NCBI GenBank assembly: GCA_964477745.1
Contig: CAYZEI010000001.1
Span: 64,393 to 128,392, forward strand
Source of the DNA: an uncultured Candidatus Saccharibacteria bacterium
GTDB taxonomy: Bacteria > Patescibacteriota > Doudnabacteria > UBA920
Length of the DNA: 64,000 nt
Direction: 5' to 3'
The notes below the pieces were generated by a model. It was not told where the DNA came from and did not search any database. It worked only from the letters and a program-made list of their open reading frames with translations. Of the stretch, positions 7,414-63,755 are shown in pieces. The position numbers and the translations under genes are program-made. Within the stretch, counting starts at the first letter, position 1; each line of letters starts with the position of its first letter.

Positions 7414-7965
7414 ATGATCCATCCCCAGAAGAGTGGTTACCGTGCGGTAGCCATATTCACTCTCGTCTTGGTTGCCGTGGTGCTTTGCGCCCCGGTCGCC
7501 ACAGGCGCGCCAATCAATCTCTATAACACGTTGGACAACACAGCCACCGGGCTGATTTGCACGACGTGTACACCAATCGCTACCAGTGGCCAAGTGGTCT
7601 CTGGATACGCGATCGGGTCTTCGGACCCGAACATCAACAACACAGGAGCGTGGCTGTTCGCGTTGATCTTCCCTGACCTTGGAGGAACTGACGCGGGTCT
7701 TGCAGACCACGTTAAATTGCTAACCGGGGCATCCATGCCAATGCTTGCCCAAGTGTTGATTGATCCCCACACCACCTTCACAGGAACCTCTTCCGGCGGC
7801 ACCTACACCGTTGGAGACGCCTCCTACGTTGTCCACATTGTCAGCGGTGGTAATGGAGGTGGCGGTGGCGGCAACGATCCGGGCGGACAGGTGCCGGAAC
7901 CTGCCAGCGTCGGACTCGTTGGCGCCGGAATCGGCGCAATCTTGTACTCCCGCTTCCGGCGGTAG
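7414..7965 (+). CDS. Secreted protein with PEP-CTERM sorting signal (VPEPASVGLVGAGIGAILYSRFRR)
   Basis: AGGAGGG RBS 7 nt upstream of ATG, signal peptide, Gly-rich linker, canonical PEP + TM + RR C-terminus; locally GC-rich. Confidence 0.6.
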   Translation: MIHPQKSGYRAVAIFTLVLVAVVLCAPVATGAPINLYNTLDNTATGLICTTCTPIATSGQVVSGYAIGSSDPNINNTGAWLFALIFPDLGGTDAGLADHVKLLTGASMPMLAQVLIDPHTTFTGTSSGGTYTVGDASYVVHIVSGGNGGGGGGNDPGGQVPEPASVGLVGAGIGAILYSRFRR

Positions 7966-8038: not shown

Positions 8039-8072
8039 GCCGGAGTACATCCGTATGTACTCCGGCTTTTTT
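8039..8072 (+). terminator. Rho-independent terminator after PEP-CTERM gene
   Basis: GCCGGAGTACATCCGTATGTACTCCGGC hairpin followed by TTTTTT. Confidence 0.65.
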
Positions 8073-18783: not shown

Positions 18784-19002
18784 ATGCTACGGAATTATAA
18801 ATAAATACCTACAGAAAACTACAGAATCTAATAGTCAAACCATTTTTATAGTTTTTTGTAGTGGTTCATTTAGACAAATCAAGCAACAAGCTAGTCATCA
18901 TTCTACCACTTATGTCAAGACCGGGCAAGGGGCTAAGACTTAAATTAAAGCGCCCCGCGACATATGCCGCGGGGCAAGAACAAAGAATCCCAGTTGCCTG
19001 AT

Positions 19003-19248
19003 TCAAGAACTACCCCTTGGCCAAGGCAGAGAGGGTTTTTCTACGTCTCGAAGTTTGTTTGCCTGGGGGACTACAACCGTCCAGGCGACCCAGCAAGCGC
19101 AAGCCTGTTGGATATCCTTGGGCTGAGCCAAGAACCACGAAATAATGGCTCCGCAACCCACAAAAGCCAACACAATGACGCCGATGGCAAACACTCTCCA
19201 GACAGCGTGAACTTTGCCATCGAGGACAACAAAAAACTCGAGCTCCAT
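19003..19248 (-). CDS. Small membrane protein (81 aa) in GC-rich mini-island
   Basis: AGGGGGG RBS 4 nt from ATG (MELEFF...), one TM helix, hairpin terminator downstream (18950..18975). Confidence 0.35.
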   Translation of the reverse strand: MELEFFVVLDGKVHAVWRVFAIGVIVLAFVGCGAIISWFLAQPKDIQQACACWVAWTVVVPQANKLRDVEKPSLPWPRGSS

Positions 19249-19463
19249 ACACCCCCCTATCTTATTTCCTCCCCGGCATGAAATTCCGGAGGTTGAGTGC
19301 ACCAAGCATTACCGCGACGACATTCCCGTTCGCACAGAAACAACATGCCAAGCAATGCCACAATGGACCCAAGGGTCCATAAAACAAGATTTCTCTTGAT
19401 CATAACCAGTAAATTATCACTTTATAGACACAAGGTCAACGGATAGATATAATTTAACTACTT

Positions 19464-24207: not shown

Positions 24208-26058
24208 ATGATGAAAAGACAAGATCACTCACACACAAGACCCGGCCATCAACATCGGCCGAGCAATTATTCCGGCAACCCGGCGCCGGCCAAAACCGAT
24301 CGTTTGGATATGCTAATTAGCAAAGCCACGGATATGGTTCCGGCCAAAGCCCCAACAACTTTAAATACCAGTCGTTATACCGCCTCCAGACAAAACTTAC
24401 GCATTATCCCTATGGGTGGTGTGGAAGAAGTCGGAGAAAATATGACAGTGCTGGAATTTGGCGATGACTTAATTGTTATTGACATGGGACTGGCCTTTCC
24501 GGACGACACTATGCCGGGAATCGACTATATTATTCCTGACACAAAATGGCTGGAAGAAAACAAACGCCGAATCCGTGGAGTAATTATTACTCACGGTCAC
24601 TTGGACCACATTGGTGCCATTCCTTACATTTTGCCGAAAATCGGTGACCCGCCGGTTTACACCATGGGTCTGACCGCTGCGTTTATAAAAAAACGCCTGG
24701 AGGAATTCGGATTACTTGGACGCTCAAAAATTCACACCTTAACCAAAGACGATGTCTTGGCTTTGGGTAATTTTAAAATTCGCTTTTTTAGGCTTAACCA
24801 CAGCATCCCCGACTCTGTCGGCTTGTGCATTACTACTCCGGTCGGACAAATAATTTATGCCACTGACTGGAAATTTGACCACACCCCGGCTGACGGCAAA
24901 CCAACCGAGTTTGATAAAATTGCCAAATTTGGCGCCGAAGGAGTAACCCTTTTAATGTCCGATTCCACCAATGCCACTAAACCCGGCTACTGCGCTTCTG
25001 AACGTGAAATCGGCTTAACCATTGACCGAACCTTCGCCGATATTAAGGGTAGAATTATTTTTGCCAACTTTTCCACCAACATTTCCCGTATTCAGCAAGT
25101 GTTTGACTCTGCGGCCAAATATAACCGCAAAGTTATTGTTACCGGACGCAGTTTGGTAAATAATATTGAAATTGCGTTGTCTTTAAATTATTTAAAGATC
25201 CAACCAAAAATTATTATCAAATCGGAAGCAGCCAAGAAGTTTCCGGATAGCCAAATTTTAATTTTGACCACCGGAGCCCAAGGGGAAGAAGCGGCCGGCT
25301 TGGCGCGAATTGCCCGTGGTGACCACAAAACTGTAAAAATTAAAAAGGGTGATACTACTATTGTCTCCGCCTCCCCAATTCCGGGTAACGAACGCGCTAT
25401 TTCCGCTATGTTGTCCAACCTGACACGTTTGGGCAGTCACGTTATTTATAACAAAACTTTAGACATTCATACTTCCGGTCACGCGCACCAAGAAGAATTA
25501 AAACTGATGATGGCTTTGGTAAAGCCGAAATTCTTTATGCCAATTCACGGTGAACACCATATGATTGTGGCTCACGCGGAATTGGCCAAAGTTATGAGCA
25601 TTCCGGAAGACCGGGTGTTTGCTTTAGACAACGGACAAATTTTGGAAATTACTTCCGCTCAAGAAGCCAAGGTTACTTCCGATTCCAAAATTTCCACCGG
25701 ATATGTATTTATAGACGGCCTGGGTATTGGTGATGTCGGCGAAGTGGTCATTCGCGATCGCCAAGTAATGGCGCAAGACGGAATGTTTGTTATTATTATG
25801 ACATTGGATCGACGCACCGGAAAACTTATAAACCAAGCGGATATTATTTCTCGAGGGTTTATATATATGAAGGGCAATGACGATTTAATCCGCGAAGTAA
25901 AACACGAGGTACGAAAGTTAGTGGAATCCAAAGGCAAAGAAAAATTGGAACCAAACTATGCATACTTGCGCAACATCGTTCGCGATGAAATCGGCGAATA
26001 CCTCTATCAAAAAACGGAAAGACGCCCAATGGTCTTGCCAGTCGTAATAGAAATCTAG
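24208..26058 (+). CDS. rnj: Ribonuclease J (metallo-beta-lactamase/beta-CASP) with ~65-aa N-terminal extension
   Basis: ITHGHLDHIGAIPY motif, beta-CASP and C-terminal domain. Confidence 0.9.
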   Translation: MMKRQDHSHTRPGHQHRPSNYSGNPAPAKTDRLDMLISKATDMVPAKAPTTLNTSRYTASRQNLRIIPMGGVEEVGENMTVLEFGDDLIVIDMGLAFPDDTMPGIDYIIPDTKWLEENKRRIRGVIITHGHLDHIGAIPYILPKIGDPPVYTMGLTAAFIKKRLEEFGLLGRSKIHTLTKDDVLALGNFKIRFFRLNHSIPDSVGLCITTPVGQIIYATDWKFDHTPADGKPTEFDKIAKFGAEGVTLLMSDSTNATKPGYCASEREIGLTIDRTFADIKGRIIFANFSTNISRIQQVFDSAAKYNRKVIVTGRSLVNNIEIALSLNYLKIQPKIIIKSEAAKKFPDSQILILTTGAQGEEAAGLARIARGDHKTVKIKKGDTTIVSASPIPGNERAISAMLSNLTRLGSHVIYNKTLDIHTSGHAHQEELKLMMALVKPKFFMPIHGEHHMIVAHAELAKVMSIPEDRVFALDNGQILEITSAQEAKVTSDSKISTGYVFIDGLGIGDVGEVVIRDRQVMAQDGMFVIIMTLDRRTGKLINQADIISRGFIYMKGNDDLIREVKHEVRKLVESKGKEKLEPNYAYLRNIVRDEIGEYLYQKTERRPMVLPVVIEI

Positions 26059-28172: not shown

Positions 28173-28195
28173 GTGTGACTAAAAGGAGGCAATCA

Positions 28196-28507
28196 GTGCT
28201 TGCGACTAGTGTGGTTCTTATTGAATGCGAGGAGGAGGCATATGCCAGATTCCTTCATGACCAATGGCCAAGCCTACAATCCTGGTGTGGACTCTTTCCC
28301 ACCCATGGACCAGTAGAGGTCCATCGTAAGAATGTGGTCATCGCGTTGACTTGGGGTGGCCAATTCAAGCCAGAAGAAACCCCTACCTACGTCAGGGGGG
28401 TCAAAGTTTTCGCCCACTCGGGCGACTTCCATATTGCCAGGCAGGAACTCTTGGCACATAACAACACTCAGGTTCATCCTGAGACCCTCTTCGGGGGAAA
28501 AAGTTGA
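28196..28507 (+). CDS. Hypothetical 103-aa protein in GC-rich mini-island
   Basis: AAGGAGG RBS 6 nt upstream of GTG start; hairpin terminator 28538..28575. Confidence 0.35.
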   Translation: MLATSVVLIECEEEAYARFLHDQWPSLQSWCGLFPTHGPVEVHRKNVVIALTWGGQFKPEETPTYVRGVKVFAHSGDFHIARQELLAHNNTQVHPETLFGGKS

Positions 28508-28586: not shown

Positions 28587-30041
28587 CTATTTTATTTCAT
28601 TTATATACCCGACGACTTCGTCGGTTTTTTGTTTTAATAGTTCAGCGGAGTCGGCTTCCAAATTTATACGTAAAAGGCTCTGAGTGTTGGAGCTACGGAC
28701 ATTAAACCGCCATGAGGGATAGCTAAAACTATAACCGTCGGTTGCGTCTATTCCCGCATCTTTATATTTTTCTTTTAAACTCTCCAGCACATTCGGATTT
28801 GTAAACTCAAAATTTATTTCCTCACTAATATAAAACTGCTCGCGGAATGGTTTTAAAATTTCAGAGAAAGTTTTTATAACCTCTCCCTGACCCTCCCCAT
28901 GAATTGGGGAGGGAATCTGAGTGGATAGTATTTCCAATACTGCTATAAACGGAAACAATCCATTGTCCAAATAAAAATTATCTTTAAAATAATAATGACC
29001 GGAGGTCTCATTGCCGAAAACCGCATCTTCTTTAGCCATACGTTCTTTTATAAACGAATGTCCGGCTTTGGTCATTATGGAAATTCCGCCGTTTTTTTCA
29101 ATAGTGGAATCTATTACCCGCACAACTCTAGTGTCGTGCAAAATTTTCGCACCCGGATGTTTTTGCAAATAGTACTCGGCTAGTAGCGCGTTAATATAGG
29201 CTGGAGTTACAAAAACACCGTTTTCGTCAAAAAAGAAACAACGATCCGCATCCCCGTCCCAAGCCACGCCTAAATCCGGTTTTAATTTTTTTATGGCCTC
29301 AATAGTTTCTCCGCGATTACTCGGCAACAACGGGTCGGAAGGGCCTTTAGGAAAATTCCCGTCTAGGTTTGGGTTAACTATTTCCAAAAATTCTATTGGC
29401 AACCTTTTCTTTAATTCATCTATTGCCTGCGTGGCCATACCAAAATTTGTATTGGCCACAATCTTTAAAGGTTTGATTTTAGAAATATTAAAAGATTTAA
29501 ACACATGGTCAAAATATTCCCGTTTGATATCTTGTTTCGTTACTGTCCCCCCGTTAGGCCCTGAGCCTGTCGAAGGGTTATTTCCTGCTTTTGGGTTTTC
29601 TGTAGTGTCACTTGCCACTTGCCACTTGCCACTGGTTACCAAATCTCTAATTTGGTAAATGCCCGAGTCCCCGGAAATCGGCGCCCCTTTTTCCCGCACT
29701 AACTTGAGCCCGCCAAACTCTTTTGGGTTGTGACTTGCCGTTATTTGCACTCCGCCGGCTACCGGTAAAGTAGCGGCCGCAAAATACAACTGGTCAGTAG
29801 AAGCTAAGCCTATGTCTATTACATTCACCCCGGCATCGGTTAAGGCATTAATGACCGCTTCACTAAACTCTTCTCCAGAAAGCCTCATGTCGTGCCCTAC
29901 AACTATCTTTGATCCCTTATCTTTTATTTCTAACAACTGCACATAGGCCTGGGCAATTTTATACACCAACTCAGCATTAATTTGCGTCGGATAAATTCCG
30001 CGAATGTCGTATGCTTTAAATATGGATGGATCTATGGTCAT
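28587..30041 (-). CDS. Phosphoglucomutase/phosphomannomutase family protein
   Basis: Active-site TASHNP loop, four-domain phosphohexomutase length. Confidence 0.85.
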   Translation of the reverse strand: MTIDPSIFKAYDIRGIYPTQINAELVYKIAQAYVQLLEIKDKGSKIVVGHDMRLSGEEFSEAVINALTDAGVNVIDIGLASTDQLYFAAATLPVAGGVQITASHNPKEFGGLKLVREKGAPISGDSGIYQIRDLVTSGKWQVASDTTENPKAGNNPSTGSGPNGGTVTKQDIKREYFDHVFKSFNISKIKPLKIVANTNFGMATQAIDELKKRLPIEFLEIVNPNLDGNFPKGPSDPLLPSNRGETIEAIKKLKPDLGVAWDGDADRCFFFDENGVFVTPAYINALLAEYYLQKHPGAKILHDTRVVRVIDSTIEKNGGISIMTKAGHSFIKERMAKEDAVFGNETSGHYYFKDNFYLDNGLFPFIAVLEILSTQIPSPIHGEGQGEVIKTFSEILKPFREQFYISEEINFEFTNPNVLESLKEKYKDAGIDATDGYSFSYPSWRFNVRSSNTQSLLRINLEADSAELLKQKTDEVVGYINEIK

Positions 30042-30409
30042 AAAGTTTCGTCTACAGTTTTTAATGCATCTAAAAATTCTTGTGGGGCACCGGTAATAAT
30101 TTCATTATTTTGATTTGGTCTAAAAGCAATTTTGCCATCAGCCATTTGAATAGCACCAGACTTTGCATACCCTGCAGTTACCTGCCCTTGTTGTAATTTT
30201 GCTTGTCTAACATCAATTCCCTTTACGCCTAAATATTGCTTTAATTCCAAAAGCTCCCTAGGGCTTAATGAACTAATCTGTCGTTCTTGCAAGCCAACTT
30301 CCGGACCAACAAGATGCTCGTATTCTATTCCACGATCAGCTTTAAAAGGAGGCTCACCCCCTGCAATTTTTGCTATATATGGACTTGTGCCTTTAGGTCT
30401 TTCAGTCAT
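30038..30409 (-). CDS. Hypothetical 123-aa protein (downstream member of a two-gene pair)
   Basis: ORF with 4-nt overlap to PGM start; no recognised domain. Confidence 0.4.
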   Translation of the reverse strand: MTERPKGTSPYIAKIAGGEPPFKADRGIEYEHLVGPEVGLQERQISSLSPRELLELKQYLGVKGIDVRQAKLQQGQVTAGYAKSGAIQMADGKIAFRPNQNNEIITGAPQEFLDALKTVDETL

Positions 30410-30411
30410 AA

Positions 30412-30801
30412 TTAAATTTTATTATTTTTATGATTATAACCTTTGTGTTGCGCTGAAACTTTATCGTATTTAAAAAACTTGCTATAAAACTCGCTCGGCA
30501 GACCAACATAAACAAAACTTTTGCCATTACTTTCCACTGTTACAACTAATTCCCTTCCTCTAACTTCTACTTTCGCAAAAGGCACAAATTTTTTCCCTAA
30601 CTCTTCGGCAGATAATGCTTTTACGCTTTTTTCCGGAAAAAACCCAGCCAAAGCAAATAATTTATGTACCTCTGCCAACTCAACATGGTTATTATTCTCG
30701 ATGGATGCCAAACTTACCACAATACTCCCTGAAAATTCCACATTTCTTGCAGCCTCGGCTTTATTGCTTAAAAAACCTCTAGTTATATTTCGATTTTCCA
30801 T
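30412..30801 (-). CDS. Hypothetical 129-aa protein (upstream member of the pair)
   Basis: 2-nt spacing to next ORF. Confidence 0.4.
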   Translation of the reverse strand: MENRNITRGFLSNKAEAARNVEFSGSIVVSLASIENNNHVELAEVHKLFALAGFFPEKSVKALSAEELGKKFVPFAKVEVRGRELVVTVESNGKSFVYVGLPSEFYSKFFKYDKVSAQHKGYNHKNNKI

Positions 30802-30954
30802 AAATTTATTCTACTTCCTCAACCCCTTTAAGTCAATTTTCGAGTTTGTCTAATTTTATATGTAATTACGTATAAAATTGGGCAAAAGAAAAAGCGACAG
30901 GGACGTATGGAGAATACGTCAAACCTGTCGCCTATGGCGGATGAACATGAACGG

Positions 30955-31158
30955 TCAGTAGGTGCGCGCGAAGAGGAACGAGCGCATTTCACGATCGGCC
31001 TGACGATCATGCAACTCTCTCTCTTTTTTGGAAACAAGCGCCTCGGCTGCGCGCCCACGGGGAGCACCTTTCATTTTACGCCTTCGGGCGGCTTTTGGCC
31101 CACCTTTTACCATTCCGCCTGCCGCGGTTCTAATTCGTGGCTGACCATGACCACTCAT
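30955..31158 (-). CDS. Small highly basic protein (67 aa, R/K/G/P-rich) in GC-rich island
   Basis: AAGGAGTG RBS 6 nt from ATG; hairpin terminator 30889..30935. Confidence 0.3.
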   Translation of the reverse strand: MSGHGQPRIRTAAGGMVKGGPKAARRRKMKGAPRGRAAEALVSKKERELHDRQADREMRSFLFARTY

Positions 31159-31319
31159 ACAATTCACTCCTTTGAACTGGATTTCGGTGACCTTGAAAAT
31201 AAATTTAGGCAACCGAATTTAATATAAATATTAATCCCGTTGTCGGAATTTGTCAAAAGAAAGAGGCGCGGGGAGTCATTGGGAATTGACTCGCGACCGC
31301 GCCCTTGATGATTTCTGAA

Positions 31320-31775
31320 CTACCGATTCAAGCCGGCAAGCTCTGGCAGTGTGCCGTAGTAGCCGACATACCGTTTTTGGCCGGCGACATTTGCTTCAAA
31401 CAATAGAGCCAGCACCCCTACCTTTCCGGAGGGTCTATCGGTCTCCAACTTCCGACAGTCCCAGACCCGAAACTCCGAGTCGCTTGATTCAACGCTGAGA
31501 CGACGCCCCAAACGGCGCCATTCGGCTGCCAGTTTGTCGTACGACATTTTGTGCTTGCGCGATTGCCCTGCCCAGCAGGACTTTTCCTGGGCGTAAAAAC
31601 CATACACCCCGGCTTCGGTTAGAAGTTCGAGGATATAAACCAGAAGCACCTGGTCTCGACACAACCGGACGTGGCACAAATCTACACGTCCTCCTGACGG
31701 ATCTTTCAGAAATAGAGCCACTGGCTCACCTCCTACAAGTCTGTATTTTTCATAAGGCGAAATTAATCGCCCCAA
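31320..31775 (-). CDS. Hypothetical 151-aa protein in GC-rich island (TTG start)
   Basis: Open frame with GC-rich codon usage distinct from host; terminator hairpin 31262..31297. Confidence 0.3.
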   Translation of the reverse strand: MGRLISPYEKYRLVGGEPVALFLKDPSGGRVDLCHVRLCRDQVLLVYILELLTEAGVYGFYAQEKSCWAGQSRKHKMSYDKLAAEWRRLGRRLSVESSDSEFRVWDCRKLETDRPSGKVGVLALLFEANVAGQKRYVGYYGTLPELAGLNR

Positions 31776-31882
31776 GATTTGAGCAGTATAACAAATAAGT
31801 TTAATAAAAGAAAGAGGCGGCCCAGGGTTACCAGGCCGCCTTGCACATCGCGTTGTGGGCGGGTGCTTGCGGGGGAACTATT

Positions 31883-32341
31883 TCAGGCATGAGCAGACGA
31901 TGCGGAAGGGACGAGCCCGGCCCGTTGCATTACCAACGGACCATGTATCCACGCCAGGAGTTGGAGGTGAGAAAATGTGACCTCCGCCTTTCGGATGGCT
32001 TCGCCATCAAAGGCGTGTTCGATCAGAATTTGGACACACCCCTCTTCTGGCTGAGGCTCGCACTGAACCATGGTGAACCCGTCACCTTTCTTCGTTCCTT
32101 GGTTTCGCTGTTCCCGGAGCGCCTTACCGCACAGACGAAACCGCTTCGCGAAGACCCCAAAGGCCAATTGGGGATTTCTCAGCTCAGGACAAGAATCCAT
32201 GTGAGCACGGAGATACTCCGCGACATCACAGGATTTTACTTCCCCTACCAACGGCTTGATGACAATATCTCGAGGAGCTACATCTCCTGAGGCCAAACTG
32301 GCACCTGAAGAGAACGTCAAACGATCAGTGTGTTTGCTCAT
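31883..32341 (-). CDS. Hypothetical 153-aa protein in GC-rich island
   Basis: AGAGGA RBS, ATG at 32341; terminator hairpin 31812..31842. Confidence 0.35.
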   Translation of the reverse strand: MSKHTDRLTFSSGASLASGDVAPRDIVIKPLVGEVKSCDVAEYLRAHMDSCPELRNPQLAFGVFAKRFRLCGKALREQRNQGTKKGDGFTMVQCEPQPEEGCVQILIEHAFDGEAIRKAEVTFSHLQLLAWIHGPLVMQRAGLVPSASSAHA

Positions 32342-32573
32342 CAATCCTCTTTTGTCTATAATATTTCCGGCCGTCCTGAGAAAATTTGAACGCCGAATTT
32401 AATTTAAATATTACTCCTACATAAACCATCTTGTCAAAGCCTCTCCTTGGCTAACGTTAGAGATACTGATATACTGATGCATGCTGATGGCGCTGAGAAA
32501 TTCCGATATCATTAAAATTTGATATCAGTATTATCCGTTTCATCTGTATTAATCCGTATATCAGTATCATATT

Positions 32574-33659
32574 ATGTCTTTTCAAATCGGCATCGTCGGC
32601 CTGCCTAACGTCGGCAAAAGCACCCTGTTTAACGCTATTACCAAAAGTAAAGTAGAAGCTGCCAATTATCCGTTTGCCACCATAGACCCAAACGTTGGCG
32701 TGGTTGCTGTGCCGGATGAACGCCTGGCAAAACTTTCGGAATTAGAAAAGAGTGAAAAAATTGTGCCTACATCCATAGAATTTGTAGATATTGCCGGGCT
32801 GGTAAAAGGCGCTTCCACGGGGGAAGGTTTGGGCAATAAATTTTTAAGCCACATCCGCGAAGTGGACGCGATTTTGGAAGTAGTGCGGGTATTTGAAAAT
32901 AAAGATATTATCCACGTTAACGGCAACGTTGACCCAAACCGCGATATGGAAACTATTGCCATTGAACTACAATTGGCGGATTTACAAAATGTAAACAACC
33001 GGCTAAATACTACAAGTAAACTGGCCAAATCCGGCGACCGCGACGCGGTGGTAAAAAAACAAGTTTTGGAAAAATATAAATTAGCTTTGGAAAAAGGTGA
33101 AATGGTGCGAACCGTAATGTTAACCGATGAAGAAAAAGAACACAGCAAAGATATTATTTTGCTGACCAATAAACCAATTATGTATGTGGTAAATGACGAA
33201 TTTAATTTAGAGAAAAAACAATTTGCTTCGGAAATTGCCAATGTTAAATTACCAATTGCTAATCCAATCCCAATTGATGCAAAAATTGAAAGCGAGCTGG
33301 CGGAACTGGAAGACGCAGAAAGAGCCGACTACCTCAAAGAACTCGGCCTTCCGGAATCCGGTTTGGATAAAATTATTAAATCTGCCTACAAAACTTTAGG
33401 CCTGATTACTTTTATAACTGCCGGGCCAAAAGAAAGTAAAGCCTGGACTTGCACCGCGGGTAGCAAAGCCCCACAAGCGGCCGGAAAAATTCATACCGAT
33501 TTTGAAAAAGGATTTATTCGCGCGGAAGTGATTCAATGGGACAAACTGCTGGAAGCCAAAGGATACGTTGGCGCCAAAGAAAAAGGTTGGCTTAGAGTAG
33601 AAGGCAAAGAATACGTTGTCCAAGACGGCGATGTAGTTCACTTTAGATTCACCGCTTAA
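32574..33659 (+). CDS. ychF: Ribosome-binding ATPase YchF (Obg family)
   Basis: GIVGLPNVGKSTLFNA P-loop, TGS C-terminal domain. Confidence 0.9.
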   Translation: MSFQIGIVGLPNVGKSTLFNAITKSKVEAANYPFATIDPNVGVVAVPDERLAKLSELEKSEKIVPTSIEFVDIAGLVKGASTGEGLGNKFLSHIREVDAILEVVRVFENKDIIHVNGNVDPNRDMETIAIELQLADLQNVNNRLNTTSKLAKSGDRDAVVKKQVLEKYKLALEKGEMVRTVMLTDEEKEHSKDIILLTNKPIMYVVNDEFNLEKKQFASEIANVKLPIANPIPIDAKIESELAELEDAERADYLKELGLPESGLDKIIKSAYKTLGLITFITAGPKESKAWTCTAGSKAPQAAGKIHTDFEKGFIRAEVIQWDKLLEAKGYVGAKEKGWLRVEGKEYVVQDGDVVHFRFTA

Positions 33660-33766
33660 AAATTCATAGCTCCCCTCTCCAGTACATGGAGAAAGGTTTT
33701 TAACAAAAGAAAAACGCGAGCCGTGAGGTCCGCGTTCTGCATGCCAACCGGGCAAGCTCGGGTTGT

Positions 33767-33985
33767 TTAGGCTCCTTTGACGAAGCCGATGATGATCAAC
33801 CACGCCGCTAGGGCATTGCACCCCCAGAACAGGGGTTTTGAACAGGTTTTCCGAAACCCATCCCACAGTGTCTGATACATTCCGGCGATTGAGCCAGTGT
33901 TGTTCAACGACTGGCTAAGAATTGGGATTCCCCACAAGACTGTGGAGAACAGGATGACACAAAGACCTAAAAAGATGAGAATCAT
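33767..33985 (-). CDS. Small two-TM membrane protein in GC-rich mini-island
   Basis: AAGGAGG RBS before MILIFLG...; hairpin terminator downstream. Confidence 0.35.
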   Translation of the reverse strand: MILIFLGLCVILFSTVLWGIPILSQSLNNTGSIAGMYQTLWDGFRKTCSKPLFWGCNALAAWLIIIGFVKGA

Positions 33986-34165
33986 GGCCCTCCTTGGGCT
34001 TGCCAAATTTATTCTTGGTTGAGCCAAGAATTCTGTATATTATAGCACTTTTTAAGTACTTTGTCAATATCTATGCCCTATCGACAAAAACCCAAGTAAA
34101 TGCTATAATTTCAACAACTTAATAATTCATATTCTCCCGACAGGGAGATAGAAAGGTTACTTTCT

Positions 34166-36549: not shown

Positions 36550-36951
36550 ATGAGATCGCGACTGATTTTTCTACTGCACTGTTGCTGTTTATTCTCCTTG
36601 GTTGCGAGTTCGCTCGCTTCCGAGTTCATTAAACACACCCACCCCAAGTTCTTTGCCGGAACTTTTATTTACGGCCTCGGACTTGCCTCGGTCCTAACTT
36701 TAGCATCGTGGATGGTGTTCGGCGGTTGCCCGCTTACGTGGCTAGAAAACCACTACCGCAGACTGGAAGGCCGGCCAACGTACCACGGATCGTGTATGGT
36801 CCACTACTACCCCACACGGTGGTTAGGCCAGCCCAACTCGCGCTACATCCACTGCGCACTTTTTGCGATCATGGCTTACCCCGTGGCCGTCCGCTACAGC
36901 GAGCAAATCAAAAGCCTCTGCCTTTCGGCAGTCCGCTTTCTCCTCGAGTGA
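36550..36951 (+). CDS. Membrane protein (CPLTWLE motif, DUF2784-like) in GC-rich mini-island
   Basis: AAGGAGGG RBS, TM helices, terminator 36948..36983. Confidence 0.4.
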   Translation: MRSRLIFLLHCCCLFSLVASSLASEFIKHTHPKFFAGTFIYGLGLASVLTLASWMVFGGCPLTWLENHYRRLEGRPTYHGSCMVHYYPTRWLGQPNSRYIHCALFAIMAYPVAVRYSEQIKSLCLSAVRFLLE

Positions 36952-40289: not shown

Positions 40290-40860
40290 TATTATACTCT
40301 TTTGCCCCTCAAGCGTCAATGCAATTTTAAAGGCCCCCGGAAACTTCTGACGAAGCGTGGAGGCCTTTGCTTGAACATCTTTTAACCACCGATGGTGGCA
40401 AGCTGTTCAAACCCGGTAACCGTAGCCGGGGCGGAGATTAGGAGATCACCTCCTTTCGGAAATGATTACAACCATCGTGCGTGGTCATGGTAATACTCCT
40501 TTTCCTGTATGGGTTGATACCTGCCGGAGCTAGCCTTAAGCTCAGGCAAAAATAGAATGGCCTAAGAAATGCCCCTGGGGTCAATGACCCCGTGTCGTGC
40601 CGCAAAAGATCTTGCGGGCTTTCCGGTTTTTGCCGTGGGTTTGTGACTTGAGCCTTTTGGCCTTTCAGTCCGAGGAAATCTCGGATTGGCCTGAAGCCGG
40701 TCAATCACCGGACCAGATTCGGGGGGAGTCGGCATTATGCGAAAATGCGGATCGCGCCGGTTGTCTCGCCGGATCACGGACAGGAATGAGCCCATATTTA
40801 ACCTCCTATGGTTTGTGGGCAAAAAAATGCTCCTTTGGCTTTTTAGGGCTTAAGGAGTTC
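40290..40860. other. GC-rich non-coding block; candidate structured RNA (unclassified), contains 16S-3'-end-like segment
   Basis: GC ~55% vs ~40% flanks, many short hairpins, no convincing ORF; GGTAACCGTAG...GATCACCTCCTTTC at 40420..40466. Confidence 0.3.
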
Positions 40861-40976
40861 GAACAACTAATATTAATACAAAGCTCTCTTGGAATTTATC
40901 TACAAAATCTGCAGATTGTGGAAACGCAACATTCATAAGTAGTATATTAGCCTTATGCTGGTATTATAGCACATTG

Positions 40977-63361: not shown

Positions 63362-63470
63362 AGAATTTTTTGTCTTTTTGGTTTAAAATAAAAAAATAAA
63401 ACTGTTTGTTAATTGATGATTACCCTAAGGGGTAGTCATGAGGGAACAAATCCACTGGAGGTAAGTGACC

Positions 63471-63755
63471 ATGAGGGTTATGCGTTTTTCTTCTGAGACT
63501 TTCGCTCAGCGCTTTACTGAAGCGCATTTAACGGCGCGGGATCGAGTCACCGTCTACCAAGGACAGCAGGTCTGCCTGGTTATTCCGGAAGACTACATCG
63601 TCCCAAGCGGTTCGGTACCCGGACTGCTTGAAGAAGTGCTGATAGAGCACAACGAATCAAAAATCGTGTCCCTGCTGGAACACGAAGACTGGGACAACCT
63701 CTTTCCCCGAATTGAACGCGGATCGGGAGAGGTGGTACTGTCTCATATTTGCTGA
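63471..63755 (+). CDS. Small protein with Phd/YefM-antitoxin-like N-terminal region; GC-rich unit
   Basis: GGAGG RBS; N-terminal pattern resembles YefM; terminator 63768..63815. Confidence 0.35.
   Translation: MRVMRFSSETFAQRFTEAHLTARDRVTVYQGQQVCLVIPEDYIVPSGSVPGLLEEVLIEHNESKIVSLLEHEDWDNLFPRIERGSGEVVLSHIC

What the first reader, a model, noticed from the sequence alone, without database searches (positions are those of the whole stretch)
30830..32420. GC-rich three-gene mini-island with modular shared upstream and downstream motifs
Three consecutive minus-strand small genes (67, 151 and 153 aa, none recognisable, one extremely basic) sit in ~57% GC DNA inside a ~40% GC genome. Two of them are preceded by the same ~28-nt motif at equivalent spacing (G[GA][GA]TTAATATTTA[AT]ATTAAATTCGG; plus-strand copies at 31207..31235 and 32387..32415). 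All three end with the same terminator architecture, read on the plus strand as AAAAGAAA[AG]AG followed by a GC hairpin (30889..30935, 31246..31297, 31801..31842). A fourth terminator of this type follows the small membrane gene at 33767..33985. This looks like a set of cassettes of common foreign origin or a co-regulated module of unknown function.
Basis: seen in the sequence. Interest (0 to 1): 0.7.

Follow-up and report, generated by a model that had tools for sequence, protein, structure and literature searches.

The report
Strain-variable small-gene hotspot in a Patescibacterium
Three small GC-rich genes of unknown function, each with its own promoter and terminator, sit between two housekeeping genes in a stretch that differs from strain to strain in a tiny Saccharibacteria-like bacterium; this is a real but fairly ordinary accessory-gene hotspot, not a three-gene machine or a demonstrably recent foreign island.

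Summary
Three minus-strand genes (67, 133 and 152 aa; 54-57% GC against 41% for the window) each have a sigma-70-type promoter, a 5' leader hairpin, a Shine-Dalgarno site and an intrinsic terminator. The shared 21-nt motif is the -10 box, the start region and the 5' arm of the leader hairpin. The shared AAAAGAAARAG is the terminator T-tract, which in two units leads into the next promoter. All three are real, fast-evolving protein genes (dN/dS 0.13-0.34). Their families are confined to a few Patescibacteria contigs, with no Pfam, PHROG, PADLOC, NCBIfam, PDB, phage or plasmid match. They are not one module. In related genomes the ychF-to-phosphomannomutase slot holds different combinations: g2 alone, a short g3 allele, unrelated 120-aa or 58-aa genes, or an AbiEii plus TOTE primase-helicase insert. 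The intergenic promoter and terminator modules stay conserved. Recent foreign origin is not supported for g2, because syntenic orthologues remain GC-rich although synonymous sites are saturated. Best reading: autonomous, moron-like accessory genes in a recombination hotspot, possibly conflict-related. Protein functions remain unknown. Interest is moderate to low.

The parts
30955..31158 (-). g1: 67-aa, very basic protein (pI 11.7), clade-restricted ORFan
   Evidence: ORF with SD AAAGGAGTG. pI. Only one homologue beyond the self-cluster (65% id, P0010). dN/dS 0.14 against the L013 copy. 100% DNA identity in L004 and L005.
30884..30933 (-). g1 intrinsic terminator: compound GC hairpin plus UUUUUCUUUU
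   Evidence: Fold -23.4 kcal/mol, z -5.9. Shares 70% identity over 40 nt with the g2 terminator (D2).
31228..31256 (-). g1 promoter, TTGACA-N17-TAATAT. Its -35 box overlaps the last two T of the g2 terminator T-tract (TTTTGACA).
31183..31217 (-). g1 5' leader stem-loop (UUCGGU...ACCGAA), beginning a few nt after the predicted transcription start
   Evidence: Folds (64-nt leader, z -3.4). Compensatory changes in the 5-sequence alignment.
31320..31721 (-). g2: 133-aa alpha/beta protein with an invariant Arg-rich helix (KLAxxWRRxGRR); small clade-restricted family
   Evidence: Homologues at 49-69% id. 32 invariant columns. AF2 pLDDT 85, pTM 0.79. About 10 family clusters among 1.8 billion representatives. 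dN/dS 0.13-0.25.
31255..31306 (-). g2 intrinsic terminator: compound GC hairpin plus CUCUUUCUUUU
   Evidence: Fold z -4.1. Conserved (93%) downstream of the unrelated 125-aa gene in L015, and in L013.
31753..31793 (-). g2 putative extended -10 (TGTTATACT, 31785..31793) and leader hairpin GGGGCGAUUAAUUUCGCC (31753..31774)
   Evidence: Read from the sequence. Fold. 90-95% identical in L004 although the CDS is only 66% identical at protein level.
31883..32341 (-). g3: 152-aa ORFan protein; has a divergent 104-aa allele in other strains
   Evidence: SD AAGAGGA plus ATG. Homologues P0002 (71%) and a 150-aa copy in L015 (77%). 31% id, E 3e-10 to the 104-aa allele of L004/L013. dN/dS 0.34. The AF2 model is unusable (pLDDT 37).
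31806..31866 (-). g3 3' UTR module: conserved hairpin (31843..31866), terminator hairpin (31815..31841) and CUUUCUUUU tract
   Evidence: Fold. The two-hairpin consensus has 4 pairs with compensatory changes across cassettes carrying g3, the short allele or a 58-aa ORF.
32366..32437 (-). g3 promoter TTGACA-N18-TAATAT (32408..32437) and leader stem-loop (32366..32397)
   Evidence: The same promoter and leader precede the g3 homologue in L012/L015 and an unrelated 58-aa ORF in L020.
33767..33985 (-). 72-aa two-helix membrane ORF: a fourth autonomous unit in the neighbouring rpsF-ychF slot
   Evidence: ORF, GRAVY +1.03, GC 48.9%. The slot content differs in L015, L020 and L006.
33700..33738 (-). 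Terminator of the 72-aa membrane ORF (hairpin plus UUUUUCUUUUG)
34011..34067 (-). Consensus promoter TTGACA-N17-TGnTATAAT (34039..34067) and leader hairpin AUUCUUGG-CUCAA-CCAAGAAU (34011..34031) of the membrane ORF
   Evidence: 12 of 12 promoter match. Hairpin listed.

Best explanation
The region is the variable part of a recombination and integration hotspot. The hotspot lies between the core gene ychF and the phosphomannomutase (PMM) operon in a Saccharibacteria-like Patescibacterium.

It holds three autonomous, monocistronic accessory genes. Each is built like a phage 'moron': a strong sigma-70-type promoter, a stem-loop at the 5' end of the mRNA, a Shine-Dalgarno site, a small CDS, and a GC hairpin with a T-tract terminator. 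In two units the T-tract leads straight into the next promoter: it overlaps the -35 box of the g1 promoter, and lies just upstream of the putative extended -10 of g2.

The promoter and leader of g1 and g3, and the terminators of g1 and g2, are partly duplicated copies of one another.

The proteins are real, clade-restricted and evolve about 5-7 times faster at non-synonymous sites than ychF, but under purifying selection.

Strains differ by replacement of whole CDSs or whole units, while the intergenic modules stay conserved. This pattern is expected from homologous recombination (these bacteria carry type IV pilus genes) acting on old, divergent alleles.

Shown: the anatomy, coding status, narrow distribution, independent assortment, mosaic identity profile and atypical composition.

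Inferred:
- The 5' stem-loops stabilise the mRNAs against RNase J.
- The units are expressed independently and probably constitutively.
- Because a sister genome carries AbiEii and a TOTE primase-helicase in the same slot, the small proteins probably serve some strain-specific conflict or host-interaction role. g1 and g2 probably bind nucleic acid.
For: Anatomy: promoters; terminators and leader hairpins; SD sites and starts.

Coding status:
- dN/dS is 0.34 (g3), 0.13-0.25 (g2) and 0.14 (g1), against 0.03-0.09 for ychF.
- The g2 alignment has 32 invariant columns, and AF2 gives pLDDT 85.
- No Rfam family reaches threshold here.

Narrow distribution.

Slot contents, ychF to PMM:
- window: g3, g2, g1
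- L004: short g3 allele, g2 allele (66% aa identity), g1
- L013: short g3 allele, unrelated 120-aa gene, g1 homologue (65% identity)
- L015: AbiEii, a 287-aa gene and an AEP-TOTE/helicase, then g3, then the 125-aa gene
- L020: a 58-aa ORF inside the g3 promoter and terminator frame
- L006 and L010: g2 alone, or with one other gene

Mosaic identity between the window and L004:
- 100% over 31283..30843
- 90-95% over the g3-terminator and g2-leader region
- about 60% within the g2 CDS
- unalignable within the g3 CDS

Other evidence:
- AbiEii and AEP-TOTE Pfam hits in the L015 slot.
- RNase J is encoded in the window at 24208..26058.
- Other GC-rich small ORFs in the window behave the same way: they have their own terminators, and their orthologues are 40-55% identical in genomes where ychF is 88-98% identical.
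Against: - No function is demonstrated for any of the three proteins. The conflict or host-interaction role rests only on neighbourhood in one relative; PADLOC finds nothing.
- Transcription starts, terminator function and mRNA stabilisation are predicted, not measured.
- The persistent GC-richness of the g2 family in every genome examined is not explained by this model.
- The comparison rests on about seven related contigs, several of them short.
Confidence: 0.7

Rival explanations
1. A mini-island recently acquired from one GC-richer donor. On this view the three cassettes arrived together by horizontal transfer and have not yet ameliorated.
For: - CDS GC is 54-57% against 41%.
- Codon usage is uncorrelated with core genes. 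Cys, Trp, His and Arg are enriched (g1-g3: Cys 2.6% against 0.5% in core genes, Trp 1.1% against 0.5%, His 2.9% against 1.7%, Arg 10.0% against 4.0%); Lys, Asn and Ile are depleted.
- The slot is an insertion hotspot.
- Another GC-rich gene in the window carries a PEP-CTERM domain typical of Gram-negative bacteria.
- Patescibacteria are reported to carry many horizontally acquired regions (PMC12455944).
Against: - g2 orthologues occupy the same slot in L006 and L010, where ychF dS is 1.2-1.9 and g2 dS is saturated. GC3 is still 0.53-0.59 against 0.40-0.47 for neighbouring core genes.
- More distant family members (L022, L023) are also 12-22 points GC-richer than their flanks.
- g3 dS (0.34) is similar to ychF dS (0.49) between the window and L015, which fits co-inheritance.
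- The three genes assort independently.
- No donor homologue is found in 5.8 billion proteins, IMG/VR, phage or plasmid records.
Confidence: 0.12
2. A conserved 'expression socket' system. Fixed frames (promoter plus 5' hairpin, and 3' hairpin plus terminator) would serve as homology arms or recognition sites, and unrelated GC-rich CDSs would be swapped into them by a dedicated or semi-dedicated exchange mechanism. High GC would be actively maintained, by selection or by GC-biased conversion at the hotspot.
For: - L020 carries an unrelated 58-aa ORF between exactly the g3 promoter/leader and the g3 3' UTR. Homology to the window stops 18 nt before the start codon and resumes 8 nt after the stop.
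- The unrelated 120/125-aa gene uses the g2 terminator.
- The 3' and 5' hairpins show compensatory changes.
- GC-richness of the g2 family persists across deep divergence.
Against: - Only a handful of loci have been examined.
- The 5' break-points vary: after the -10 box in L004/L013, after the leader hairpin in L020.
- The frames are orthologous flanks of one slot, not a repeat spread over many slots. The leader motif was found only in this slot.
- No recombinase is associated with the slot.
- AT-rich ORFans in the same slot (orf129/orf123 against orf161/orf97) are equally variable.
- Ordinary homologous recombination plus fast CDS divergence explains the pattern.
Confidence: 0.1
3. One functional three-gene system, for example a toxin, an antitoxin and a regulator, or a small defence system, co-regulated through the shared promoter and leader motif.
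For: - The genes are adjacent and on the same strand.
- g1 and g3 share 20 of 21 nt around the -10 box and the start of the leader.
- The slot carries defence genes in a relative.
Against: - Each gene has its own promoter and a strong terminator.
- The genes occur in different combinations or alone in relatives.
- The shared leader occurs in L015 and L020, which lack g1.
- No TA or defence family matches in Pfam, PADLOC or NCBIfam.
Confidence: 0.04
4. Not protein genes at all: GC-rich structured RNAs, or chance ORFs that stay open because GC-rich DNA has few stop codons.
For: - Long ORFs are also open on the opposite strand (149 aa at 31841..32290, 106 aa at 30907..31227).
- The amino-acid composition (Cys, Trp, His and Arg rich) resembles random or young ORFs.
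- g3 gives no confident fold.
Against: - dN/dS is well below 1 in the proposed frames.
- Strong SD sites sit at the correct spacing.
- ORF lengths and N-termini are conserved in homologues.
- The AF2 model for g2 is confident from only 7 sequences.
- g3 and its 104-aa allele align as proteins (E 3e-10) although the DNA is unalignable.
- No Rfam hits, and no Pfam hits in alternative frames.
Confidence: 0.02
5. An integron-like cassette array in which the 3' hairpins are attC recombination sites.
For: An array of small ORFan cassettes in one orientation, each followed by an imperfect palindrome. Two of the palindromes are similar to each other (D2).
Against: - Every hairpin is immediately followed by a T-tract, and each cassette has its own promoter.
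- No GTTRRRY core is seen at the boundaries (sequence).
- The genes flanking the slot are ychF and PMM in every genome. No tyrosine recombinase was found among the window ORFs scanned.
Confidence: 0.02

Closest known systems
Phage 'morons' (independent transcription units added to phage genomes; Cumby et al. 2012, PMC3594210)
   Same: Each gene is a stand-alone unit with its own promoter and factor-independent terminator. Its GC content differs from that of its neighbours, and it is present in some relatives and absent in others at the same position. This matches the definition quoted in PMC3594210.
   Different: The units are not in a phage or prophage. The flanks are ychF and a phosphomannomutase operon. 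No viral homologues were found. At least g2 has been resident in the slot for a long time.
Flexible or replacement genomic islets and defence hotspots between conserved core genes
   Same: - A fixed slot between syntenic core genes has strain-specific content.
- Identity is mosaic, with sharp breaks in the intergenic regions.
- A sister genome carries known conflict genes (AbiEii, AEP-TOTE plus helicase) in the same slot.
   Different: The resident genes match no known defence family. They are unusually small, monocistronic and compositionally distinct from the host.
Integron gene cassettes / CALIN arrays
   Same: A one-orientation array of small, mostly ORFan genes, each followed by an imperfect palindrome.
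   Different: The palindromes are intrinsic terminators with T-tracts. The cassettes carry their own promoters. There is no integrase and no attC core motif.
5'-terminal stem-loop mRNA stabilisers in RNase J organisms (for example Bacillus subtilis leaders; from general knowledge)
   Same: A stable hairpin begins within a few nucleotides of the predicted transcription start in all four units. RNase J is encoded in the window.
   Different: This is only predicted here. No transcript ends or half-lives are known for this organism.

Membership tests
Phage moron | Own promoter and own terminator flanking a single gene | tested here: met
   g1 and g3 have TTGACA-N17/18-TAATAT promoters, and the membrane ORF a 12/12 consensus promoter. 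For g2 only a putative extended -10 (TGTTATACT), read from the sequence, supports its own promoter. All four have hairpin plus T-tract terminators, with folding z from -1.4 to -5.9.
Phage moron | Base composition different from surrounding genes | tested here: met
   CDS GC is 54-57% against 35-42% for the flanking genes and 41% for the window.
Phage moron | Located inside a phage or prophage genome | tested here: not met
   The flanks are ychF, rpsF, ssb and PMM. There are no hits in IMG/VR, GenBank phages or BFVD.
Integron cassette array | attC site (imperfect palindrome with R''/R' GTTRRRY cores) at the 3' end of each cassette | tested here: not met
   The 3' palindromes are followed directly by T-tracts. 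No GTTRRRY core is seen at the boundaries on reading the sequence. No attC covariance model was available.
Integron cassette array | Integron integrase next to the array | tested here: not met
   The slot is bounded by ychF and PMM in all seven related loci. No recombinase domain was found among the window ORFs scanned. Not every window ORF was scanned.
Type II toxin-antitoxin module | Two adjacent genes in one operon under one autoregulated promoter, both from known TA families | tested here: not met
   The transcription units are separate. There are no family hits. The genes assort independently.
Defence island / hotspot | Known defence or conflict genes occupy the same locus in related genomes | tested here: met
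   The L015 slot holds AbiEii (E 7e-19) and AEP-TOTE plus a ResIII/DEAD helicase (E 3e-78) between ychF and the g3 homologue. L012 shows the same AEP and helicase next to g3.
Defence island / hotspot | The genes themselves belong to a known defence family | tested here: not met
   PADLOC, Pfam, NCBIfam and PHROGs give no hits for g1-g3.
Pol-beta-type nucleotidyltransferase fold (MNT / AbiEii / MenT-like), considered for g2 | Clear structural match and the hG[GS]...DxD catalytic motif | tested here: not met
Known RNA families | Match to an Rfam covariance model | tested here: not met
   Only two tRNAs reach gathering score in the window, and none lies in this region.

The most novel reading that the evidence does not exclude
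This Patescibacteria clade may harbour a distinct class of 'portable micro-genes'. These would be small, GC-rich, fast-evolving, monocistronic ORFans held in conserved expression sockets (promoter plus 5' hairpin, and 3' hairpin plus terminator). Unrelated CDSs would be exchanged between the sockets. Their high GC would be actively maintained over deep divergence in an AT-rich genome, by selection or by biased conversion at recombination hotspots, rather than being a fading trace of transfer.
Probability: 0.1. Interest if true: 0.7.

Novelty: new member of a known kind. Interest (0 to 1): 0.35.

Why it matters
Patescibacteria have tiny genomes, and a large share of their genes have no known function. 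This locus shows, at single-gene resolution, how strain-specific small proteins are organised there.

- They are autonomous, strongly signalled transcription units.
- They sit in fixed slots between core genes.
- They are exchanged by recombination across conserved intergenic modules.

The slot is one where conflict systems (AbiEii, TOTE) also land, so g1-g3 and their alternates are reasonable candidates for new defence, counter-defence or host-interaction factors in episymbiotic bacteria.

The one puzzling point is that the g2 family stays 5-20 points GC-richer than its surroundings in every genome, although synonymous sites are saturated. If that generalises, it bears on how base composition is maintained within a genome. 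Otherwise the finding is a well-documented example of an ordinary phenomenon.

Tried and rejected
- Family and profile searches of g1-g3, the membrane ORF and neighbouring ORFans against Pfam, PHROGs, PADLOC and NCBIfam found nothing.
- PDB sequence searches found nothing meaningful. WD40 and PU.1 matches at E > 0.03 are artefacts of the RVWD and basic-helix motifs.
- An exhaustive profile search with the g2 alignment over 1.8 billion representatives returned about 10 true small-protein members. The long multi-stretch hits align only to the 'RVWDCRKL' stretch and look like WD40-type repeat artefacts; this is inferred from the motif and was not checked.
- The g3 model was too poor to search with (pLDDT 37).
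- Phage or plasmid origin: the motif and all three proteins were searched against IMG/VR, and g2 and g3 against GenBank phages and PLSDB. There were no hits.
- RNA reading: no Rfam hits.
- The idea that the cassettes are scrambled or out-of-frame fragments of known genes: alternative-frame and antisense ORFs give no Pfam hits.
- The metagenome scan for the 21-nt motif returned 7 contigs. Only 2 (L015, L020) are homologous loci; the other 5 are chance matches with no similarity beyond the motif, four in AT-rich contigs (23-36% GC) and one in a 62% GC contig.
- The genome-contig scan with the g2 profile found only the Saccharibacteria MAG already in hand.
- A literature search for a described equivalent in Saccharibacteria/Patescibacteria found only general HGT surveys.
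Full report
**Setting.**
The window has 41.1% GC. It carries core genes typical of a small Patescibacteria genome:
- dnaK, grpE and hrcA
- type IV pilus genes
- uvrA and uvrC
- RNase J
- trpS
- a phosphomannomutase (PMM)
- ychF
- rpsF, ssb and rpsR
- efp

A relative whose YchF is 88% identical is deposited as an uncultured Candidatus Saccharibacteria MAG. A g3 homologue is deposited under 'Patescibacteria group bacterium'.

**Check of the observation.**
Three consecutive minus-strand genes lie between ychF (32574..33659, plus strand) and a minus-strand operon (orf129, orf123, PMM).
- g1 is 30955..31158 (67 aa).
- g2 is best read as 31320..31721 (133 aa). It starts at a GTG six bases after AGGAGGTG, and the N-terminus MALFLKDP is shared by all homologues. 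The 151-aa reading is simply the longest ORF.
- g3 is 31883..32341 (152 aa).

The CDSs are 56.9%, 54.7% and 54.0% GC, elevated at all three codon positions. The neighbouring genes are 35-42% GC.

The 21-nt motif TAATATTTAWATTAAATTCGG occurs exactly twice in the window, before g1 and g3, against 0.03 matches expected. The plus-strand AAAAGAAARAG followed by a GC hairpin is present after all three genes. A one-mismatch version follows the 72-aa membrane ORF at 33767..33985. The same gene order appears in independent assemblies from other samples.

**What the motifs are.**
Read on the coding strand, each unit has the same layout.
- It starts with a sigma-70-type promoter: TTGACA-N17-TAATAT for g1, TTGACA-N18-TAATAT for g3, and a 12/12 consensus with TG for the membrane ORF. 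For g2 I read an extended -10, TGTTATACT, from the sequence.
- A stem-loop begins a few nucleotides after the expected start site.
- A strong Shine-Dalgarno site, the CDS and a GC-rich hairpin with a (C)UUUCUUUU tract follow.

Five leaders from the window and related loci keep this hairpin, with compensatory changes at two pairs.

The 'AAAAGAAARAG' motif is the reverse complement of the terminator T-tract. After g2 the tract overlaps the first two bases of the -35 box of the g1 promoter (CTTTCTTTTGACA). After g3 the tract is followed about a dozen bases later by the putative extended -10 of g2.

The g3 3' UTR has a second conserved hairpin just after the stop codon. Together with the terminator stem it shows four pairs with compensatory changes across five loci.

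GC-hairpin plus T-tract terminators are common throughout the window, including after core genes. The architecture is therefore generic, while the particular sequences are locus-specific. The g1 and g3 promoter/leader modules (92% over 25 nt) and the g1 and g2 terminators (70% over 40 nt) look like duplicated modules.

**Are they genes?**
Yes.
- Codon-aligned comparison with homologues gives dN/dS of 0.34 for g3, 0.13-0.25 for g2 and 0.14 for g1. The value for ychF is 0.03-0.09.
- Non-synonymous divergence is about seven times that of ychF for the same genome pair (0.116 against 0.016, window against L015).
- The g2 family alignment has 32 invariant positions in a protein-like pattern. AlphaFold gives a confident alpha/beta model from only seven sequences (pLDDT 85, pTM 0.79).
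- g3 and a 104-aa allele found in other strains align as proteins (31% identity, E 3e-10) although their DNA is unalignable.
- No Rfam family matches. ORFs in other frames have no Pfam matches.

**What are the proteins?**
This remains unknown.
- Pfam, PHROGs, PADLOC, NCBIfam and PDB sequence searches give nothing.
- Among 5.8 billion clustered proteins, g3 has one homologue cluster, g1 has one and g2 has five.
- An exhaustive profile search over 1.8 billion representatives finds only about ten true g2 relatives. The remaining hits are long multi-stretch proteins that align only to the 'RVWD' stretch of the profile, which I read as WD40-type repeat artefacts without checking them.
- g1 is a 67-aa protein with pI 11.7.
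- g3 could not be modelled.

**Comparative context, the key result.**
The segment between ychF and PMM is hypervariable among close relatives.

| Locus | Content of the slot |
|---|---|
| window | g3, g2, g1, orf129, orf123 |
| L004 | 104-aa g3 allele, g2 allele (66% identical), g1 identical at DNA level |
| L013 | 104-aa g3 allele, unrelated 120-aa gene, g1 homologue (65%), a different AT-rich ORF |
| L015 | AbiEii toxin gene, 287-aa gene, AEP-TOTE primase-helicase (Pfam E 7e-19 and 3e-78), then a g3 homologue (77%), the 125-aa gene with the g2-type terminator, no g1 |
| L020 | g3 promoter and leader, unrelated 58-aa ORF, g3 3' UTR and terminator, nothing else |
| L006, L010 | g2 orthologues (about 50% identical), with one other gene or alone |

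The identity profile between the window and L004 is a mosaic:
- 100% from inside the g2 terminator through g1 and its terminator
- 90-95% across the g3 terminator and the g2 leader
- about 60% within the g2 CDS
- unalignable within the g3 CDS

The three genes therefore assort independently. The intergenic promoter and terminator modules are better conserved than the coding sequences between them.

The neighbouring rpsF-ychF slot, which holds the 72-aa membrane ORF here, is also variable. In relatives it holds 114-135-aa GC-rich ORFs and a DUF559 endonuclease gene.

**Is it foreign DNA?**
The composition is clearly atypical.
- RSCU correlation with core genes is 0.05-0.16.
- There are no TTA leucine codons among 36, against 35% in core genes.
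- Cys, Trp, His and Arg are enriched.

The simple 'recent import' story does not fit g2.
- Its orthologues lie in the same slot in genomes where synonymous sites are saturated (g2 dS above 2; ychF dS 1.2-1.9).
- GC3 is nevertheless 0.53-0.59 in all four lineages, against 0.40-0.47 for their core genes.
- Two more distant family members on short contigs are also 12-22 points richer in GC than their flanks.
- g3 has a dS similar to that of ychF between the window and L015 (0.34 against 0.49), which fits co-inheritance.
- No homologue outside this clade was found, nor any in viral, phage or plasmid collections.

Other small GC-rich ORFs scattered through the window behave alike: 7414..7965, 19003..19403, 28175..28507, 36550..36951 and 63465..63755. 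They are stand-alone units. Where orthologues were found, they are 40-55% identical in genomes whose YchF is 88-98% identical. I have no tested explanation for the persistent GC excess and record it as unexplained.

**Most likely mechanism.**
The units are autonomous, monocistronic accessory genes in a recombination and integration hotspot.
- Their architecture is that of phage morons: own promoter, own terminator, deviant GC (PMC3594210). They are not in a phage.
- The 5' stem-loops probably protect the mRNAs from 5'-end-dependent decay. RNase J is encoded at 24208..26058. This step is inference from what is known in other RNase J organisms.
- Allele and cassette replacement most simply reflects homologous recombination in the conserved intergenic modules between strains carrying old, divergent alleles. 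This pattern is commonly seen at loci under diversifying or frequency-dependent selection.
- AbiEii and a TOTE conflict system occupy the same slot in a sister genome. I therefore think a strain-specific conflict or host-interaction role is the most likely function, with g1 and the Arg-rich helix of g2 as candidate nucleic-acid binders. This is guilt by association and carries low confidence.

**Rivals considered.**
- Recent single-donor island: weakened by the g2 orthologues.
- A dedicated 'expression-socket' exchange system with maintained GC: not excluded, about 0.1.
- A co-regulated three-gene system: contradicted by independent assortment and by separate promoters and terminators.
- Non-coding or chance ORFs: contradicted by dN/dS, SD sites and the g2 model.
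- Integron cassettes: no attC cores, no integrase, and the cassettes have their own promoters.

**Verdict.**
The finding is real and neatly organised, and its motifs are explained. It belongs to a known kind: a strain-variable accessory islet made of moron-like units. It carries new, uncharacterised protein families. It is of moderate interest, mainly as a source of candidate conflict or host-interaction proteins in Patescibacteria, and for the unexplained stable GC excess of these small genes.

Noticed in passing
window 7414..7965 (+): A 183-aa protein with an N-terminal hydrophobic segment that looks like a signal peptide (by eye) and a C-terminal PEP-CTERM sorting motif (PEPASVGLVGAGIGAILYSRFRR; Pfam PF07589 E 2e-4, TIGR02595 E 2e-4). 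It is encoded by the most GC-rich gene in the window (about 58%) and lies among type IV pilus genes. PEP-CTERM/exosortase substrates are typical of Gram-negative bacteria, so this one is odd in a Patescibacterium. It may be a cross-phylum import. It has its own strong terminator at 8039..8066.
   Followed up: partly
L015 (reverse strand), between ychF and the g3 homologue; also L012 499..2649: A 4.2-kb insert carries an AbiEii-family nucleotidyltransferase toxin gene, a 287-aa unknown gene and a 716-aa AEP-TOTE primase plus ResIII/DEAD helicase gene (39-41% GC). It sits in the same slot that holds g1-g3 in the window, which marks the slot as a landing site for conflict systems.
   Followed up: partly
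window 19003..19403 (-): Two small GC-rich ORFs in tandem (81 aa and 48 aa, each with a hydrophobic helix) lie between uvrA and uvrC. They end in the hairpin GCCCCGCGGCATATGTCGCGGGGC at about 18945..18968. They have no Pfam hits. The longest ORF here is on the opposite strand and is probably spurious.
   Followed up: partly
window 36550..36951 (+): A 133-aa membrane or secreted protein (54% GC; borderline DUF2784 match, 29.6 bits against a cutoff of 29.7) with its own promoter-like site and terminator. Its L020 orthologue is only 55% identical, while YchF is 98% identical.
   Followed up: partly
window 28175..28507 (+): A 110-aa GC-rich (51%) ORFan lies between trpS and PMM. A 114-aa orthologue (40% identity) occupies the same position in the Saccharibacteria MAG L006. 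It is another member of the GC-rich, fast-evolving small-gene class.
   Followed up: partly
window 30038..30801 (-): orf129 and orf123 are AT-rich (35-39% GC) ORFans that overlap by 4 nt with each other and with PMM, so they are probably co-transcribed with it. In L015, L020 and L013 they are replaced by unrelated orf161/orf97 or orf155. The variable slot therefore also contains AT-rich ORFans.
   Followed up: partly
window 32462..32568: A 28-nt inverted repeat (82% complementary, 51-nt spacer), rich in the word ATCAGTAT/ATACTGAT, lies in the divergent intergenic region just upstream of ychF. This region differs in L004, L012 and L015. It may be a ychF leader or operator.
   Followed up: no
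window 33767..33985 (-): The 72-aa membrane ORF has a perfect consensus promoter with an extended -10, a leader hairpin and a terminator. Yet no gene was called there in the public assemblies L001 and L002, so it is probably an overlooked small gene.
   Followed up: partly
window 63465..63755 (+) and 40303..40938: These are further short GC-rich stretches (52%, and 48-52%) with small ORFs that have no Pfam hits. They were not examined further.
   Followed up: no
L004 846..866 (inside the g2 allele): The words CCCGCAAGCAC and GATGTGC from the g3 3'-UTR hairpin also occur within the g2 coding sequence, 3 nt apart (they encode ...RKHKMC...). This is probably chance, but it could hint at a shared origin for the 3' UTR and g2 sequence.
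   Followed up: no
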